Shown: piece after piece, positions 39,383 to 52,004 of the stretch
How the letters are laid out: the number at the start of each line of letters is the position of its first letter
How positions within the stretch are numbered: position 1 is the stretch's first letter
NCBI GenBank assembly: GCA_022837635.1
Contig: JALHFY010000001.1
Coordinates: 317,693-381,692, forward strand
Source: Candidatus Shapirobacteria bacterium
GTDB taxonomy: Bacteria; Patescibacteriota; Microgenomatia; UBA12405
DNA length: 64,000 nt
Direction: 5' to 3'
Notes under the pieces: model-generated
Told to the model about the DNA's origin: nothing
Databases searched by the model: none
The model's input: only the letters and a program-made list of their open reading frames with translations
Program-made: the position numbers and the translations under genes

Positions 39383-39715
39383 ATGAAATTAATAAATTAT
39401 GATGACTTTGCTAAAGTAGAATTTAGAGTTGGTGAAATTAAAGAAGCAAAAGTAGTGGAAGAATCGAAAAAATTGATTAGGATGGTAGTAGATTTTGGAA
39501 AAGAATTAGGAGAAAGAATAGTTTTTTCGGGAATTAGAAAATGGTATCAACCAGAGGACCTTATCAATAAAAAAACGGTATTTGTGGTTAATTTGCCTCC
39601 TAAAAAAATTATGGAGGAAGAGAGTCAGGCAATGATTTTTGGAGCTGAAAACGGAGATGATATGTCTATTTTGCTATTAGATAATGATTTGAAAAATGGA
39701 AGTAAGGTATTTTAA
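39383..39715 (+). CDS. tRNA-binding domain protein (CsaA/Trbp111-like, MetRS C-terminal domain-like)
   Basis: FAKVEFRVGEIKEAKVVEESKKLIRMVVDFG...VVNLPPKKIM pattern; start moved to ATG 39383 (longer ORF from 39317 overlaps divergent neighbour). Confidence 0.7.
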   Translation: MKLINYDDFAKVEFRVGEIKEAKVVEESKKLIRMVVDFGKELGERIVFSGIRKWYQPEDLINKKTVFVVNLPPKKIMEEESQAMIFGAENGDDMSILLLDNDLKNGSKVF

Positions 39716-41295
39716 TGATCAGAACAAAAATACAAAATTGGCTTTTGGAAAATAAAATTGAGGGCAGACTAGAACATCCAGCTGATAAAAAATTTGGAGA
39801 TTTTTCGGTGAGAACCGGCAGTGAGGTTAAATTAACAAAAAATAATTTGGTAGATAAAGTGGAGTTTGTGAGTGGTTTTACTAATATATATTTAAATCCA
39901 GAGCTTTTGATGGACAGAGCTAAAAAAATTAAAAATGGAGAATTTAGAAAAGATTTATCTCAGATAGGTAAAAATAAAAGCATGGTGATTGATTATAGTG
40001 CTCCCAATATCGCCAAAGCTTTTGGAATTGGACATTTGCGGTCTACTAATATTGGTCAAGCGATTTATAATCTTTATGAAATTTTGGGGTGGAAATGTAT
40101 TGGAGATAATCATTTAGGAGATTGGGGAACTCAGTTTGGAAAATTAATTGTGGCGATTAAAAAATGGGGCGAAATGGAAGTGGATAAAATGACTGTTGAA
40201 GATTTAGAAAGACTCTATGTCAAATTTCATCAAGAAGCCAAAAAAGATGAAAGTTTGGTGGAAGAAGGAAGGAACTGGTTTTTAAGATTAGAAAAAGGAG
40301 ATGCTGAAGCTAGAAGTATTTGGCAAAAATGTGTAGAAATCTCTCTTAAAGAATTTAATAAGATTTATGATTTACTAGGAGTGAAAATTGATTATGCTTA
40401 CGGAGAATCATTTTATGAAGATAAAATGGCAGCGGTAGTTGAGATGTTGGTTGATAAAAATTTAATTAAAGAGAGTCAGGGGGCTAAAATTATAGAATTT
40501 GAAAATATGCCACCAGCAATGGTGGAAAAATCTAACGGTACCACTACTTATTTCACTAGGGATTTGGCTACAATTAAGTATAGAGTTGAAACTTGGAATC
40601 CGGACTTAATGATTTATGAAATTGGAGCGGATCAAAGCCTGCATTGCCGACAATTGTTTGAAGCCGCCAGGAAACTGGGTTTTACTAATGATTTTTATCA
40701 CGTAGCCCACGGTTTGATTCGTTGGGAAGGTGGTAAATTTTCGACCAGAAAAGGTGAAACAATTCACTTGTCTGAAGTGATTGATAGAGCCATAAAAGAG
40801 GCGAAAAAAATTGCACCAAATAACAGTCAAGAGCAGATTAAAGCGGTAGCCATCGGCGCGATTAAGTTTAATGATTTGGCTCAAGATCCAAAGAAAGATA
40901 TTGTCTTTGATTGGAAAAGAGTGATGAGTATGGAGGGAAACTCAGGGCCTTATCTTCAGTATACCTATGCTAGATGTAAAAGTGTTATCAATAAAAAACA
41001 AGATACAAAAAACAAGATACAAAAAAAACAAAGTTGGAATGAGGAGGAGATGAATTTGTTGAGGGAGTTTTATAAATTTGAGGAAAAAATAATTGAAGCA
41101 GCTGACAGATTTGCGCCGTCAGTGGTGGCGGAATATCTGTTGAATTTAGCCAGAAGTTATAATGAATTTTATGCTAAAAACCGAATTATTGGGGAAAAAG
41201 AAGAAAGTCGTCGCCTCTTTTTAACTGAAAGCACTGCCAGTATTTTGAAGCAAGGATTGGAATTGTTGGGAATTGAAACGGTGGAAAAGATGTAA
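39715..41295 (+). CDS. argS: Arginyl-tRNA synthetase
   Basis: HIGH-type motif AFGIGHLRST, class I catalytic core and C-terminal DALR-type anticodon-binding domain; 526 aa. Confidence 0.85.
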   Translation: MIRTKIQNWLLENKIEGRLEHPADKKFGDFSVRTGSEVKLTKNNLVDKVEFVSGFTNIYLNPELLMDRAKKIKNGEFRKDLSQIGKNKSMVIDYSAPNIAKAFGIGHLRSTNIGQAIYNLYEILGWKCIGDNHLGDWGTQFGKLIVAIKKWGEMEVDKMTVEDLERLYVKFHQEAKKDESLVEEGRNWFLRLEKGDAEARSIWQKCVEISLKEFNKIYDLLGVKIDYAYGESFYEDKMAAVVEMLVDKNLIKESQGAKIIEFENMPPAMVEKSNGTTTYFTRDLATIKYRVETWNPDLMIYEIGADQSLHCRQLFEAARKLGFTNDFYHVAHGLIRWEGGKFSTRKGETIHLSEVIDRAIKEAKKIAPNNSQEQIKAVAIGAIKFNDLAQDPKKDIVFDWKRVMSMEGNSGPYLQYTYARCKSVINKKQDTKNKIQKKQSWNEEEMNLLREFYKFEEKIIEAADRFAPSVVAEYLLNLARSYNEFYAKNRIIGEKEESRRLFLTESTASILKQGLELLGIETVEKM

Positions 41296-48792: not shown

Positions 48793-49437
48793 ATGTTTGA
48801 ATATGAAAGACTGGTTTTAGGAGAATTAGAGACCAATTGCTACCTATTATGGGAGAGTAAAAGTCGGGAGGCGGTAGTGATAGACGCCGCTGACAGTGCG
48901 GAAACAATTTCTGAAGAAATCGAAAAAAGACAATTGAAACTAAAATATGTGATTTCAACTCATGGCCATTTTGACCACAATTTAGCGGCATTGGATTTGA
49001 AATTAATTTATCAAGTGCCTTTTTGTGCCAGTCAAAAAGATTTCTTTTTATTAGAAAGACAACAAGAAAGTGCCAATCATTTTTTGGGAGCAAAAACTCA
49101 AGTACCGAATTTTAAGAAAATTGATATTGATTTAGACAAAACAGAGAGTTTAAGTTTGGGTAAACAAAAAATAAAAATTATCAAAACACCTGGACATACT
49201 CCAGGAGGAGTATCAATTTTGGCGGATAAATTTTTATTTGACGGGGATTTGATTTTCGCCGGAGGGATGAGAGGTGATACCAGACATCAATACAGTTCAA
49301 ATCGGTTGATTTTTAGAAGCATTTGTAAGGTTTTGGATCTCCCTGATGATATAGAAATATTGCCGGGACATGGGGAAAAAACGACTGTGGCTGAAGCCAG
49401 AGAGCTGTTTAATTGTCAGTATTGCGAATGGAATTAA
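48793..49437 (+). CDS. MBL-fold metallo-hydrolase (glyoxalase II-like)
   Basis: STHGHFDHN (HxHxDH) and downstream His/Asp ligands. Confidence 0.8.
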   Translation: MFEYERLVLGELETNCYLLWESKSREAVVIDAADSAETISEEIEKRQLKLKYVISTHGHFDHNLAALDLKLIYQVPFCASQKDFFLLERQQESANHFLGAKTQVPNFKKIDIDLDKTESLSLGKQKIKIIKTPGHTPGGVSILADKFLFDGDLIFAGGMRGDTRHQYSSNRLIFRSICKVLDLPDDIEILPGHGEKTTVAEARELFNCQYCEWN

Positions 49438-49579
49438 TGGTCTCTTCAAAGCTTTGGTGATTATCCTGCTGAAGAGAAGCCAGGAGCTCAATTACTGAAT
49501 CTTCAAAATATTTTTTAATCGCTTGGGTCTGATCGGGGGTGAGTTTAAGTTCAATAGCTAGTTCGTCGATAGTTTTCAT
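49409..49579 (-). CDS. 56-aa helical hypothetical protein immediately downstream of the radical SAM gene
   Basis: Hand-translated minus-strand ORF ATG 49579 to TAA 49409: MKTIDELAIELKLTPDQTQAIKKYFEDSVIELLASLQQDNHQSFEETINSIRNTDN; below the 60-aa cutoff of the ORF track; 21 nt after the rSAM stop. Confidence 0.35.
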   Translation of the reverse strand: MKTIDELAIELKLTPDQTQAIKKYFEDSVIELLASLQQDNHQSFEETINSIRNTDN

Positions 49580-49600
49580 ATATAGAATTATACACTGTTA

Positions 49601-50452
49601 TTAATATCCTTCTTTTAAACCTGTATCATCAAAAAATAGACTTCGGCCTCTAGTGTGGTATTTTTCTGTATATCTCAGATAAACAAAAATTGGAATACCA
49701 TTTTGAGGGATATAAGCATAATTATCACAGGTACACCTGTCACCATCAACCATATGGCGAGTCAAGAAAAAATCACTATTATCACGATCAAGTGGACCTA
49801 AATCACGATAATCTATAAAATTTTGTCTCGTATATTGATTAACTTGCATCATAGAAATAAAACCAACTTCAGATATGTGTGAATCACTGACTGATTCTAA
49901 AAACTTAGTGACTTTAGAAGAGTTGTCTATATAGTTTTTCATGAGCACACAATTTATTCTTAAATCAGCATTTAATTCGTTTTTGACAAATGGTAAATCG
50001 TCAATTGATAAAGTTTTGGTTCCAAAAACTTGATTGTTTTTCATATCAAGATAATGGTGCCGACTTAACTGAATCGATTCGATAATGTATTTGTTTAATA
50101 AGTCAATATTATCTTTTAAGAAAGAACCATTAGTGTTGATAGTTATTCTTCGATTGTATTCGGAAAGAAGATCTAAAAGTCCTTCAAACTTCTGTGGGTT
50201 GATTAGAGGTTCACCTCCGCTAACAGAAAAACGACTAATGTGTGGATATGTCTGCCTTAAAATTGTCCTAAGTTTAGGTAGATCTAAATTACTAGTTTCA
50301 TTCGGGTTTAATTCAGCATTCGAACAAAATTGACAACGGCCATTGCATTGACCAGTAATATTTATATAGAAAGGAAATTCTTTATCGGAAGGACTACATT
50401 CGTATGGTGATAAATTAAAGGTCTGACCAGAAACTTCAACGATGTAACTCAT
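49601..50452 (-). CDS. Compact radical SAM enzyme (CX3CX2C, SGGEP), candidate peptide maturase
   Basis: GQCNGRCQFCSN cluster-binding motif, SVSGGEPLI SAM motif, C-terminal CTCDNY Cys pair; 283 aa; 13 nt downstream of the repeat peptide gene. Confidence 0.7.
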   Translation of the reverse strand: MSYIVEVSGQTFNLSPYECSPSDKEFPFYINITGQCNGRCQFCSNAELNPNETSNLDLPKLRTILRQTYPHISRFSVSGGEPLINPQKFEGLLDLLSEYNRRITINTNGSFLKDNIDLLNKYIIESIQLSRHHYLDMKNNQVFGTKTLSIDDLPFVKNELNADLRINCVLMKNYIDNSSKVTKFLESVSDSHISEVGFISMMQVNQYTRQNFIDYRDLGPLDRDNSDFFLTRHMVDGDRCTCDNYAYIPQNGIPIFVYLRYTEKYHTRGRSLFFDDTGLKEGY

Positions 50453-50465
50453 GTTACAAAATTAT

Positions 50466-50705
50466 TTAACATGATTTGTGACTACTACTGCTACCACCGC
50501 GACCACAGGGATGCCCACCGCCAGAACTACTGCTACCACCGCGACCACAGGGATGCCCACCGCCAGAACTACTGCTACCACCGCAATTATGATCCTCCAT
50601 ATAACCAAAAATGTCATCTAGACGGGCTCTAGCAAGGTCACCATACTCACTATCAACTCTGGAATTAACTAAATTGGCAGCAATTTCTTTATTATTTGTA
50701 CTCAT
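50466..50705 (-). CDS. Small Cys/Gly/Ser/His-rich repeat peptide, candidate RiPP precursor
   Basis: MSTNNKEIAANLVNSRVDSEYGDLARARLDDIFGYMEDHNCGG-(SSSSGGGHPCGRGG)x2-SSSSHKSC; ATG at 50705 preferred over GTG at 50720. Confidence 0.6.
   Translation of the reverse strand: MSTNNKEIAANLVNSRVDSEYGDLARARLDDIFGYMEDHNCGGSSSSGGGHPCGRGGSSSSGGGHPCGRGGSSSSHKSC
50487..50570. repeat. Perfect 42-bp tandem direct repeat (2 full units plus partial flanks 50481-50584) encoding the 14-aa peptide module
   Basis: ACTGCTACCACCGCGACCACAGGGATGCCCACCGCCAGAACT x2, 100% identical. Confidence 0.9.
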
Positions 50706-50798
50706 GGCTGATAATAACACACTTGCTTAGATAATAAAAACGAGTAGAGAAGTATTGAGAGATAAGGTAAAATATAGTTTGGCAAGCTGCAATATTTT

Positions 50799-50869
50799 TA
50801 CCCCGTCGTCTAATGGTAGGACATTACGCTCTGAACGTAAGAATCGTGGTTCGAATCCATGCGGGGTAA
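50799..50869 (+). tRNA. tRNA-Gln (anticodon CTG), no encoded CCA
   Basis: Acceptor TACCCCG/CGGGGTA, anticodon stem TTACG/CGTAA with loop CTCTGAA, T-arm CGTGG-TTCGAAT-CCATG. Confidence 0.8.
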
Positions 50870-50930
50870 CAAAACAAATAACATAAAGTAAATAAATCTT
50901 GGAATATTTTTCTTTGCTATGATGGTATAG

Positions 50931-52004
50931 ATGAATCAAAATAGAAAAAGTAAAATTATAGCCACAGTGGGGCCGGCGACGGAAAGTGAAAAAGTCTTGA
51001 ATGAAATTATTCAAAACGGAGTGAATGTTTGTCGATTGAACACTAAATATAGTGATAAAAGTTGGCATCAAAAAGCAATTAGAAATATTAGAAAAGTAAG
51101 TGGTGGTAAGGTGCCGATACTTTTGGATATTCCCAGACTTGATTTTGAAATTTTTGAAAATGTGGATATGGTGGCCGTATCGTATATTAAAAATGCGTCA
51201 GAGATTGAGAAAGTAAAAGAGAGATTAAAAAGACAAGGGCGGAAATTACCGATTATTGCCAAGATTGAAAATGTCTCAGCGCTAAAGAATTTGGAAGAAA
51301 TTATTCAAGTGACAGATGGAGTCATGGTGGCTAGAGGCGACTTGGGAAGAAATATTCCGATTGAAGAATTGGCTACACTACAGGGAAGAATTATTGATAC
51401 CACTAGATTAGCCAACAAACCGGTAATTGTAGCCACGGAGATGTTGTTATCAATGACTAAAAATCCCCTACCGACTCGAGCGGAGGCTTCTGATGTGGCT
51501 CACGCCTTGTTTGATGGAGCCGATGCGGTGATGTTGTCAGAAGAAACTTCAATCGGAGAACATCCGGCGGAAGCAGTTAAAGTGATGAGTAAAATTTTAG
51601 GTTTTAGTGAGAAAAACGGTGACATCAAAGAGATTGAACATGACAACGACACTTTAGGAGAAACTATTATTAAATCGGCTAAAGACTTATCAGAGTTTGC
51701 AGATGCAGTCGTGGTCTTTACAAAATCAGGGGGATCAGCGCAGAAATTAAGTAATTATCGTCTCCAGAAAAATATAATTGCCATTACTGATCAGGAAGAG
51801 GTGGCAAAATTATTGAATTTATCTTATGGAGTAACCCCCTACTTTAAAAAGTTTACTGACAAACATTTTGATAAAAATCATGACATTTTTGAAGAACTTA
51901 AAGAAGCGAAAATGATTAAAAACAAAAGTAAACTACTATTGATACATGGCAATAACTGGCTGGAAAGCGGTTCAGTGAATGCTCTTAGTTTTGTGGAAGT
52001 TTAG
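50931..52004 (+). CDS. pyk: Pyruvate kinase (short form)
   Basis: KIIATVGPAT, MVARGDLG, SEETSIGEHP motifs; 357 aa. Confidence 0.8.
   Translation: MNQNRKSKIIATVGPATESEKVLNEIIQNGVNVCRLNTKYSDKSWHQKAIRNIRKVSGGKVPILLDIPRLDFEIFENVDMVAVSYIKNASEIEKVKERLKRQGRKLPIIAKIENVSALKNLEEIIQVTDGVMVARGDLGRNIPIEELATLQGRIIDTTRLANKPVIVATEMLLSMTKNPLPTRAEASDVAHALFDGADAVMLSEETSIGEHPAEAVKVMSKILGFSEKNGDIKEIEHDNDTLGETIIKSAKDLSEFADAVVVFTKSGGSAQKLSNYRLQKNIIAITDQEEVAKLLNLSYGVTPYFKKFTDKHFDKNHDIFEELKEAKMIKNKSKLLLIHGNNWLESGSVNALSFVEV

What the first reader, a model, noticed from the sequence alone, without database searches (positions are those of the whole stretch)
50481..50584. Perfect 42-bp tandem repeat encoding duplicated 14-aa SSSSGGGHPCGRGG modules
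Two 100%-identical 42-bp units (50487-50528, 50529-50570) with partial units on both sides. The repeat is in frame, so each copy adds one GGGHPCGRGG module with a Ser4 spacer. Perfect identity implies very recent duplication or ongoing slippage/recombination. Copy number is therefore likely polymorphic between strains, giving a modular and expandable core peptide.
Basis: seen in the sequence. Interest (0 to 1): 0.6.

Follow-up and report, generated by a model that had tools for sequence, protein, structure and literature searches.

The report
Copy-variable repeat in radical-SAM peptide gene
A perfect 42-bp tandem repeat lies inside a small peptide gene next to a radical-SAM enzyme gene; each copy adds one His-Pro-Cys-Gly module, and public metagenomes show that the number of modules really does differ between strains and relatives.

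Summary
Window 50484-50584 is a 101-bp, period-42, 2.4-copy, 100%-identical tandem repeat. It lies in frame on the minus strand in a 79-aa ORF (50466-50705). That ORF ends 13 nt upstream of a 283-aa radical-SAM gene (49601-50452).

In other metagenomes the same organism (identical rSAM protein) carries a contiguous 1-unit allele in 4 samples and a 2-unit allele in 2. Contigs from 9 further samples break exactly where a k-mer simulation predicts for an allele with at least 2 units. The alleles differ only by a clean 42-bp indel.

Orthologous rSAMs (45-61% identity) in Clostridia are also preceded by peptides with tandem GHP(S/A)CG modules. These carry 1 to 5 modules on near-identical leaders, and one has its own perfect 42-bp x 3.3 array. 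Cys flanked by small residues is the only feature common to all cores.

The enzyme is a compact, MoaA/twitch-like rSAM with no SPASM or RRE match, four extra invariant Cys, and no curated family. No protease or transporter is linked to it.

Best reading: an uncharacterised two-gene rSAM-peptide cassette whose core grows and shrinks module by module through slippage. The chemistry, possibly a Cys-centred thioether, is only inferred. Moderate interest; a new variant of a known kind.

The parts
50484..50584 (-). Perfect tandem repeat tract: period 42 bp, 2.40 copies, 100% identity.
   Evidence: TRF and a direct period-42 identity run.
50535..50576 (-). Module 1 in protein register: residues 44-57, SSSSGGGHPCGRGG.
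   Evidence: Translation and codon list.
50493..50534 (-). Module 2 in protein register: residues 58-71, SSSSGGGHPCGRGG. This is the unit absent from the 65-aa allele P0048.
   Evidence: the alignment shows a clean 42-bp gap.
50466..50705 (-). Precursor-peptide ORF: 79 aa plus stop, ATG at 50705. The ORF finder's upstream GTG at 50720 would give 84 aa, but that sequence is not in the protein collection.
   Evidence: the 79-aa sequence, P0049, is a called protein in NCBI and ENA records. Homologous position upstream of orthologous rSAMs.
50592..50705 (-). Putative leader, residues 1-38. It shares the motif I-x-x-R-x-x-S-x(8)-R-L-x-x-I-F-(P/G) with the L101 and L102 peptides.
   Evidence: Alignment A2. 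The homology to the long clostridial leaders is weak: hhalign aligns only the core.
50469..50591 (-). Putative core, residues 39-79. It has four Cys, each preceded by His at position -2 or -3: HNC, HPC, HPC, HKSC. It ends in a C-terminal Cys.
   Evidence: Compare L101 (HSSC, HSAC, HSSC-end) and L102 (ends GHC).
49601..50452 (-). Radical-SAM enzyme, 283 aa. The CxxxCxxC motif is C36/C40/C43. Further family-invariant Cys are C19, C168, C240 and C242. No SPASM or RRE match. The start codon lies 13 nt after the precursor stop codon.
   Evidence: Pfam PF04055 at 51.4 bits (cut-off 29.5). All NCBIfam hits are far below their cut-offs. Alignment A1. AF2 model with pLDDT 87.7. Foldseek best match MoaA at TM 0.68, then SuiB, SkfB and EpeE.
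49409..49579 (-). 56-aa ORF 21 nt downstream of the rSAM gene. Whether it belongs to the cassette is doubtful.
   Evidence: Called in all same-species contigs but absent downstream of the closest orthologue, L101. No family hits.

Best explanation
The repeat is the variable part of a small two-gene cassette: a ribosomal precursor peptide followed by a radical-SAM (rSAM) maturase.

The peptide has a roughly 38-aa leader. Its Gly/Ser-rich core consists of short modules, each presenting one Cys in a [small]-Cys-[Gly/Ser] context. Here the module is G-H-P-C-G.

Each 42-bp DNA unit encodes one module plus a Ser4 spacer. The units are identical at the DNA level, so replication slippage or unequal recombination adds or removes whole modules in frame. 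Strains of this organism therefore carry 1 or at least 2 modules, and related Clostridia carry 1 to 5.

Shown: the repeat, its reading frame, the one-unit indel polymorphism, the conserved peptide-rSAM adjacency, and Cys as the only invariant core residue.

Inferred: the rSAM acts once per module at or next to the Cys. My leading guess is a Cys-centred cross-link such as a sactionine-type thioether to a nearby Gly or Ser C-alpha. I guess that the four extra invariant cysteines hold an auxiliary Fe-S cluster. Module number would then set the number of modified sites per peptide. No protease or exporter is linked, so the product may stay as a multi-module peptide, possibly one that binds metal through its His/Cys pairs.
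For: Repeat and frame.

Same-species alleles:
- The 65-aa and 79-aa forms sit in one 90% cluster.
- They differ by a clean 42-bp indel with all flanking bases identical.
- Contig break points at 61 nt, 86 nt and 151 nt are reproduced by simulation only when at least 2 units are present.
- An independent assembly carries the 2-unit allele.

Conserved adjacency: Cys-rich Gly/Ser-rich ORFs lie directly upstream of rSAM orthologues of 45-61% identity. This holds in L011/L012, L091-L097, L101, L102, L111 and L112. In two Bacilli-type loci the upstream protein instead carries TCSG repeats.

Module-number variation of 1-5 on near-identical leaders: the 3-, 4- and 5-module forms sit on contigs of 360, 45 and 85 kb. 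There is a clean 39-bp indel between L091 and L093. L012 has an independent perfect 42-bp x 3.3 array.

Enzyme:
- rSAM core and CxxxCxxC.
- Invariant C19, C168, C240 and C242, also kept in distant relatives.
- Structural neighbours include the peptide-modifying SuiB, SkfB and EpeE.

No transporter or peptidase among the neighbouring genes.
Against: - No chemistry is known for any member of this family. The enzyme lacks the SPASM domain and RRE that typify thioether-forming RiPP maturases.
- Its best structural match is MoaA, which acts on a nucleotide.
- Homology between the window's leader and the clostridial leaders is not significant; only the cores align, with hhalign probability 60%.
- Two rSAM branches at 44-45% identity (P0042, P0043) have no upstream peptide, so peptide linkage is not universal.
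- The promoter and terminator scan gave nothing above background.
- Some 1-unit contigs, especially L001 from an unknown assembler, could in principle be collapsed assemblies.
Confidence: 0.7

Rival explanations
1. The copy-number differences are assembly artefacts. Short-read assemblers collapse or break a 42-bp repeat, and the real locus has one fixed copy number.
For: Most contigs covering the locus are short and break inside the repeat. The assembler used for L001 is unknown. Reads could not be inspected.
Against: A k=31 graph of an allele with at least 2 units must break at 61 nt and 151 nt, and 8 of the 9 break samples show one or both of those k=31 breaks; the ninth, L006, shows the equivalent 86-nt break predicted for 56-mers. 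A pure 1-unit allele gives no break. Three Logan k=31 contigs (L007, L008, L117) run straight through a 1-unit locus. That is possible only if unit-to-unit junction k-mers are absent or negligible there. The 2-unit form was assembled twice independently (the window and L106). The same kind of clean one-unit indel is seen in a different species on contigs of 5.8-9.3 kb, and the 3-, 4- and 5-module forms lie on contigs of 45-360 kb.
Confidence: 0.08
2. The peptide is not an rSAM substrate. It is an independent small His/Cys/Gly-rich protein, for example a metal-binding peptide, that merely sits next to an rSAM working on a small molecule or nucleotide, as MoaA and viperin do.
For: The best structural match is MoaA. 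There are weak pVip and viperin-model hits. No RRE or SPASM domain is present. P0042 and P0043 have no upstream peptide. Distant Bacteroidales relatives pair with a HemN-like rSAM instead. HxxC pairs are plausible metal ligands.
Against: A Cys-module ORF lies directly upstream, 8-58 nt away or overlapping, on the same strand. This is kept across rSAM orthologues down to 47-50% identity in unrelated genomic neighbourhoods. Nothing else is syntenic. The viperin, MoaA and QueE models all score far below their curated cut-offs, for example 41 against 180 bits and 59 against 284 bits.
Confidence: 0.15
3. It is an rSAM-peptide pair, but the modification is not a thioether. The enzyme could instead epimerise residues (as YydG/EpeE does), oxidise Cys to formylglycine or a thioaldehyde, or desulfurise Cys.
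For: The best sequence match among solved structures is the epimerase YydG/EpeE (6.5e-12, N-terminal half). The modules lack the Asp/Glu/Thr acceptors used by ranthipeptide synthases. Some cores have isolated Cys with only Gly or Ser neighbours.
Against: The YydG model scores 35 bits against a cut-off of 300. Epimerases described so far target hydrophobic residues rather than Gly/Ser/Cys tracts (my own knowledge). Cys is the only invariant core residue, which points to sulfur chemistry. None of this is decisive.
Confidence: 0.3

Closest known systems
PapA/PapB (freyrasin) ranthipeptide system
   Same: An rSAM enzyme modifies a precursor whose core is a series of short Cys-containing motifs. 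[quoted passage not shown] This is the closest functional analogue for 'one modification per module'.
   Different: PapB belongs to the rSAM-SPASM class and cross-links Cys to an Asp/Glu side chain. The enzyme here has no SPASM or RRE match, and the modules contain no Asp, Glu or Thr. As far as I know, strain-level copy-number polymorphism driven by perfect DNA repeats has not been described for PapA.
Sactipeptide synthases, especially SkfB (twitch-type, one auxiliary cluster)
   Same: SkfB is among the top structural neighbours (Foldseek E 3e-7) and sequence-profile hits (5e-6). It is a compact rSAM with a single C-terminal auxiliary cluster, and its substrate is a Cys-containing peptide encoded next to it.
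   Different: Identity is only about 16%. There is no N-terminal RRE. The conserved extra Cys follow a different pattern (C19, C168, C240-x-C242). Thioether formation has not been tested.
YydG/EpeE radical-SAM peptide epimerase
   Same: It is the best sequence match among solved structures (6.5e-12) and is a peptide-modifying rSAM of similar size.
   Different: Only the N-terminal rSAM half aligns. The NCBIfam YydG model scores 35 bits against a cut-off of 300. The substrate types are unrelated.
His-Xaa-Ser (Hxs) repeat system (HxsA with HxsB/HxsC rSAMs)
   Same: The precursor has tandem short His-containing motifs, and HxsC is an rSAM without SPASM. There is a weak HxsC hit (2.9e-10).
   Different: The hit scores 39.5 bits against a cut-off of 267.9. 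No HxsB or HxsD partners are present. The conserved residue here is Cys, not the H-x-S tripeptide.
MoaA (GTP 3',8-cyclase)
   Same: It is the best structural match (TM 0.68 over about 280 columns) and the best NCBIfam hit. Both have a C-terminal region with extra Cys.
   Different: The hit scores 58.8 bits against a cut-off of 284 with 16-17% identity. The genomic context is a peptide gene, not molybdopterin genes.

Membership tests
Radical SAM superfamily (PF04055) | CxxxCxxC cluster motif and a partial TIM-barrel core. | tested here: met
   C36-x3-C40-x2-C43. Pfam PF04055 scores 51.4 bits against a cut-off of 29.5. The AF2 model superposes on MoaA, SuiB and SkfB.
rSAM-SPASM RiPP maturases (sactipeptide and ranthipeptide synthases, PqqE, MftC and others) | C-terminal SPASM domain with a 7-Cys motif binding two auxiliary clusters. 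| tested here: not met
   No SPASM-domain model appears among the Pfam hits, and none among the 25 NCBIfam hits shown out of 46, even at E<=1. The hits to SPASM-family maturases cover only residues ~25-209 of the rSAM core. The protein ends at residue 283 with only C240-x-C242 after the core.
rSAM-SPASM RiPP maturases | N-terminal RiPP recognition element (PqqD-like RRE). | tested here: not met
   No PqqD or RRE hit. The model shows only a short beta-hairpin (residues 3-15) before the core.
RiPP biosynthetic cassette (generic) | A small precursor ORF next to the modifying enzyme, co-directional with it, conserved across orthologues. | tested here: met
   A Cys-module ORF lies directly upstream of the rSAM in the window and in L011/L012, L091-L097, L101, L102, L111 and L112. 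L098/L099 also have an upstream ORF but with only 2 Cys in a Pro/Gln-rich tail.
RiPP biosynthetic cassette (generic) | Demonstrated post-translational modification of the core. | not testable with these tools
   This needs heterologous expression and mass spectrometry.
Sactipeptides / ranthipeptides | A thioether between Cys sulfur and the C-alpha (or C-beta/gamma) of an acceptor residue. | not testable with these tools
   Cys is the only invariant core residue. That is suggestive only.
Multi-module (tandem-motif) RiPP precursors | A core made of repeated short motifs, each holding the residue to be modified. | tested here: met
   2 x SSSSGGGHPCGRGG here. Relatives carry 1-5 x GHPxCG(x7-10). 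L012 has 4 x GHPAC, three of them as full GHPACGNGYPSGGY units.
Prokaryotic viperin (pVip) | Score above the curated family threshold. | tested here: not met
   NF038283 scores 41.4 bits against a cut-off of 180. The PADLOC pVip hit covers only the generic core, residues 30-193.
MoaA | Equivalog score. | tested here: not met
   TIGR02666 scores 58.8 bits against a cut-off of 284.
YydG/EpeE epimerase | Equivalog score. | tested here: not met
   TIGR04078 scores 35 bits against a cut-off of 300. Only the N-terminal half aligns to 8ai1.
His-Xaa-Ser system | HxsC equivalog score, HxsB/HxsD partners and an H-x-S repeat peptide. | tested here: not met
   TIGR03977 scores 39.5 bits against a cut-off of 267.9. 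There is no second rSAM among the neighbours.

The most novel reading that the evidence does not exclude
This would be a previously undescribed rSAM family without SPASM or RRE that iteratively modifies a minimal [small]-Cys-[Gly/Ser] motif wherever it is presented in tandem. The carriers would range from 65-154-aa peptides, in an uncultured low-GC sewage-associated bacterium and in gut and rumen Clostridia, to 250-370-aa WXG/LXG-like proteins in Bacilli that are probably secreted by a type VII system. The number of modified sites would be tuned on strain-level timescales by slippage of perfect DNA repeats. That would make it a naturally copy-number-tunable modified peptide or protein, with new Cys chemistry carried out by a MoaA-like scaffold.
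Probability: 0.35. Interest if true: 0.7.

Novelty: new variant of a known kind. Interest (0 to 1): 0.5.

Why it matters
RiPP precursors with repeated motifs are known. Here the repeat number can be seen changing between strains: 1 versus at least 2 units, through a clean 42-bp indel. The same behaviour recurs independently in relatives, which carry 1 to 5 modules. This gives a natural series of 1- to 5-module substrates for an uncharacterised, unusually small rSAM that lacks both SPASM and RRE. It also pins the likely target to a single Cys in a tiny motif, so the enzymology is directly testable. The cassette has only two genes and no dedicated protease or exporter. A related enzyme appears next to repeat-bearing WXG/LXG-like proteins, which hints that rSAM modification may extend to secreted proteins.

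Tried and rejected
- Pfam and NCBIfam scans of the window peptide and five orthologous precursors found no family.
- I tested whether the clostridial leader motif 'INSIVPIFF' is homologous to 'IDSVVPYFD' in the 110-aa helper protein of L107. hhalign gave 2.6% probability, so I rejected the idea.
- I tested the window peptide against the clostridial precursor profile. Only the core aligns (probability 60%, E 9e-5), so leader homology is not established.
- I considered viperin/pVip, MoaA, QueE, YydG and HxsC membership. All score far below their curated cut-offs.
- The sigma-70 promoter and intrinsic terminator scan of 49300-51000 gave 8 promoter-like sites against 6.4 expected, and no terminators. 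This is uninformative.
- Rfam on the whole window found only two tRNAs.
- Distant rSAM homologues of 27-30% identity in Bacteroidales, Akkermansia and Treponema have no Cys-module ORF and a different context. I excluded them from the peptide-linked clade.
- Eight literature searches, including literal motif strings, returned nothing on this family.
- The WXG100/LXG assignment of the Bacilli-type neighbours is only sub-threshold (E 3e-5 to 2e-2), so I treat it as a lead and not a result.
- The organism's taxon could not be determined. The window has no rRNA, and the genome-collection scan did not return the source genome.

Full report
**1. The observation**

Tandem Repeats Finder reports a period-42 array at window 50484-50584 with 2.4 copies, 100% matches, no indels and score 202. 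It is the strongest tandem repeat in the 64-kb window. A direct test of s[i]=s[i+42] gives one unbroken run from 50484 to 50542. The tract is therefore 101 bp, and a run of 59 matches cannot be chance. The tract is 63% GC in a 37% GC window.

**2. What it sits in**

On the minus strand the repeat is in frame in a small ORF, 50466-50705, of 79 aa from the ATG. The peptide reads:

MSTNNKEIAANLVNSRVDSEYGDLARARLDDIFGYMEDHNCGG / SSSSGGGHPCGRGG / SSSSGGGHPCGRGG / SSSSHKSC

- Thirteen nucleotides downstream begins a 283-aa ORF (49601-50452) with CNGRCQFC. It is a radical-SAM protein: Pfam PF04055 scores 51.4 bits against a cut-off of 29.5.
- Every specific NCBIfam model scores far below its cut-off. 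Examples are MoaA (59 against 284), viperin (41 against 180), HxsC (39.5 against 268) and YydG (35 against 300). No SPASM or RRE model matches.
- The other neighbours are a 56-aa ORF, a convergent MBL-fold gene, tRNA-Gln, pyruvate kinase, an RRM protein and Dus. There is no peptidase or transporter.

**3. Copy number within this organism**

The identical rSAM protein (P0001) occurs on at least 21 public contigs. The protein database holds two versions of the peptide in one 90% cluster: the 79-aa form and a 65-aa form lacking exactly one 14-aa unit.

At the DNA level the window and an independent ENA contig (L106) carry two units. L001 and L007 carry one. The four sequences differ only by a clean 42-bp gap, and every other base of about 240 nt is identical.

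Many short-read contigs stop inside the repeat:
- Six Logan contigs begin exactly 61 nt upstream of the rSAM ATG.
- One ENA contig begins 86 nt upstream.
- Four contigs coming from the pyruvate-kinase side end exactly 151 nt after the precursor ATG.

I simulated de Bruijn graphs for alleles with 1, 2 or 3 units and for a 1+2 mixture. The breaks at 61 nt and 151 nt (k=31) and at 86 nt (56-mers, as in SPAdes K=55) appear if, and only if, a unit-to-unit junction is present. A pure 1-unit allele gives no break.

| State | Samples | Loci |
|---|---|---|
| 1 unit, contiguous | 4 | L001/L114, L007, L008, L117 |
| 2 units, contiguous | 2 | window, L106 |
| At least 2 units, inferred from breaks | 9 | L002-L006, L009, L010, L115, L116, L122, L123 |

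Two samples (SRR18493546 and ERR14064717) show the predicted break on both sides. Record names such as 'CPH_Sewage' indicate sewage metagenomes. Reads could not be inspected, so the window's own copy number could be higher than 2.

**4. Orthologous loci**

rSAM homologues of 45-61% identity were located in genomes and metagenomes. Directly upstream of nearly all of them is a small ORF with a Gly/Ser-rich, Cys-containing C-terminal part.

- The two closest relatives share the window enzyme's NPxE insertion and have short peptides like the window's. L101 ends ...YSHSSCGSSDEDTNSGGHSACGGSSSGGVRHGGHSSC. L102 ends ...SYSCGNCGSGGDSDGGRGHC.
- A clostridial clade has 103-154-aa precursors with tandem GHP(S/A)CG modules.
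- A profile search with the precursor alignment returned 23 such HPxC-module peptides. Their leaders are 70-100% identical over the first 70 residues, apart from one N-terminally truncated entry. Their module counts are 1 (n=1), 2 (n=3), 3 (n=7), 4 (n=10) and 5 (n=2).
- The 3-, 4- and 5-module forms are supported by contigs of 360, 45 and 85 kb.
- L091 (3 modules) and L093/L094 (4 modules) differ by one clean 39-bp unit only.
- L012 carries its own perfect 42-bp x 3.3 array, with an unrelated DNA sequence, encoding GHPACGNGYPSGGY.
- Other branches have non-repeated cores with 3-5 Cys (L095, L096, L097, L111, L112).

Across all of these, the only shared core feature is Cys flanked by small residues and usually followed by Gly or Ser. 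His at -2 or -3 is common but not universal.

**5. The enzyme**

Alignment of 20 family members shows invariant C36/C40/C43, plus C19, C168, C240 and C242. The last four are also present in distant relatives. That is compatible with an auxiliary Fe-S cluster, but this is inference.

The AF2 model is confident (pLDDT 87.7). Its best structural matches are MoaA (TM 0.68), then SuiB, BlsE, SkfB, viperins and EpeE. The best sequence match among solved structures is the epimerase YydG/EpeE, over the N-terminal half only.

An exhaustive profile search of 1.84 billion representatives finds 157 clusters at E<=1e-30. Only three score better than 1e-76, so the peptide-linked clade is small. No paper in the searchable library mentions this family or its motifs.

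**6. How it most likely works**

*Shown.* The 42-bp unit encodes one complete module. Units are gained and lost in frame. Both states circulate in one species. The same process operates independently in relatives. The peptide-rSAM pairing is the only conserved synteny.

*Inferred.* The peptide is the rSAM's substrate. The enzyme acts once per module at or beside the Cys. Module number therefore sets the number of modified sites.

For the chemistry I favour a Cys-centred cross-link, for three reasons:
- Cys is the only invariant residue.
- Gly and Ser C-alpha positions are the only acceptors common to all modules.
- SkfB-like enzymes with a single auxiliary cluster make such thioether bonds.

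My confidence in that chemistry is low, around 0.25-0.3. Epimerisation or Cys oxidation remain open.

No protease or exporter is linked, and the His/Cys pairs are regularly spaced. The mature product may therefore be an intact multi-module peptide, possibly one that binds metal.

**7. Comparison with known systems**

The closest functional analogue is PapA/PapB (freyrasin). [quoted passage not shown] The present system differs in four ways:
- The enzyme has a different architecture, with no SPASM domain and no RRE. Both were tested and not met.
- The modules lack acidic acceptor residues.
- The cassette is a minimal two-gene unit.
- Strain-level copy-number polymorphism driven by perfect DNA repeats is documented here.

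It is not a member of the viperin, MoaA, YydG or Hxs families, since all score below their curated cut-offs.

**8. Verdict**

The feature is a real, recently active, in-frame module-number polymorphism. It lies in the putative core of an uncharacterised rSAM-associated peptide.

Novelty: a new variant of a known kind. Tandem-motif rSAM-modified peptides are known, but here the maturase family is unclassified and lacks SPASM. Interest is moderate at 0.5. The concept is not surprising to a RiPP specialist. The locus does offer a clean, directly testable entry into a new enzyme family, with a natural 1-5-module substrate series.

Noticed in passing
L103 2768-7584 (also L104, L105; NCBI GCA_017434825.1, 'Bacilli bacterium' MAG) and L107 2523-4828 / L108: The same rSAM family (48-50% identity) sits among repeated 98-aa WXG100-like genes. 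These score below threshold: Pfam E 3e-4, TIGR03930 E 3.5e-5. Just upstream is a 251-369-aa protein with a helical N-terminus (LXG E 0.018). Its C-terminal half is made of tandem Cys modules: about 11 x TTCSGS(A/T)I in L103 and 6 x (P)KTCSG(T/S/A)(A/S)VT in L107. This suggests rSAM modification of type VII-secreted proteins.
   Followed up: partly
L017 1725-6077; P0085 (737 aa): Distant relatives of the rSAM (27-30% identity) in Bacteroidales, Akkermansia and Treponema keep C19, C168 and the CxC motif. They have no Cys-module ORF. In L017 a 726-aa protein precedes the gene and a HemN-like rSAM follows it. P0085 is a natural fusion of a HemN-like rSAM with this rSAM family. This looks like a separate, uncharacterised two-rSAM system.
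   Followed up: partly
L109 1183-5180, L110, L113 2501-4642: The rSAM branch P0042/P0043 (44-45% identity, with a 16-aa insertion) has no upstream peptide. It is flanked by a divergent DUF975 gene upstream and a gene downstream for a protein of about 1000 aa rich in Asn, Lys and Glu.
   Followed up: no
L012 3790-3927: A Clostridium MAG has an independent perfect 42-bp x 3.3 tandem array (100% identity) in its orthologous precursor. The unit length is the same 14 aa as in the window, but the DNA sequence is unrelated.
   Followed up: yes
L094 3584-4011 (human gut metagenome AJWZ01010989.1): Here the precursor is split into a 48-aa leader fragment and a 79-aa core ORF. The rSAM is annotated as only 228 aa (P0040). 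This is either a pseudogenised cassette or homopolymer sequencing errors.
   Followed up: no
window 49409-49579 (-): A 56-aa ORF lies 21 nt downstream of the rSAM gene. It is called in all same-species contigs and overlaps the 3' end of the convergent MBL-fold gene (48793-49437) by 29 nt. It is not conserved next to the closest orthologue (L101) and has no family hit.
   Followed up: partly
window 50799-50870 (+): tRNA-Gln(CTG) lies about 95 nt upstream of the precursor gene on the opposite strand. The cassette has no conserved synteny with its relatives, so a tRNA-adjacent insertion is conceivable. This was not examined.
   Followed up: no
window 40993-41026: A perfect 14-bp x 2.4 tandem repeat (AAAAAACAAGATAC) lies inside the 3' part of the arginyl-tRNA synthetase-like ORF (39715-41295). 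The period is not a multiple of 3, so a change in copy number would shift the frame.
   Followed up: no
L101 3158-4135: The closest orthologous cassette (P0003) lies just downstream of a KwaB (Kiwa defence) gene and upstream of a Pif1-type helicase. This may be an accessory or defence-island neighbourhood.
   Followed up: no
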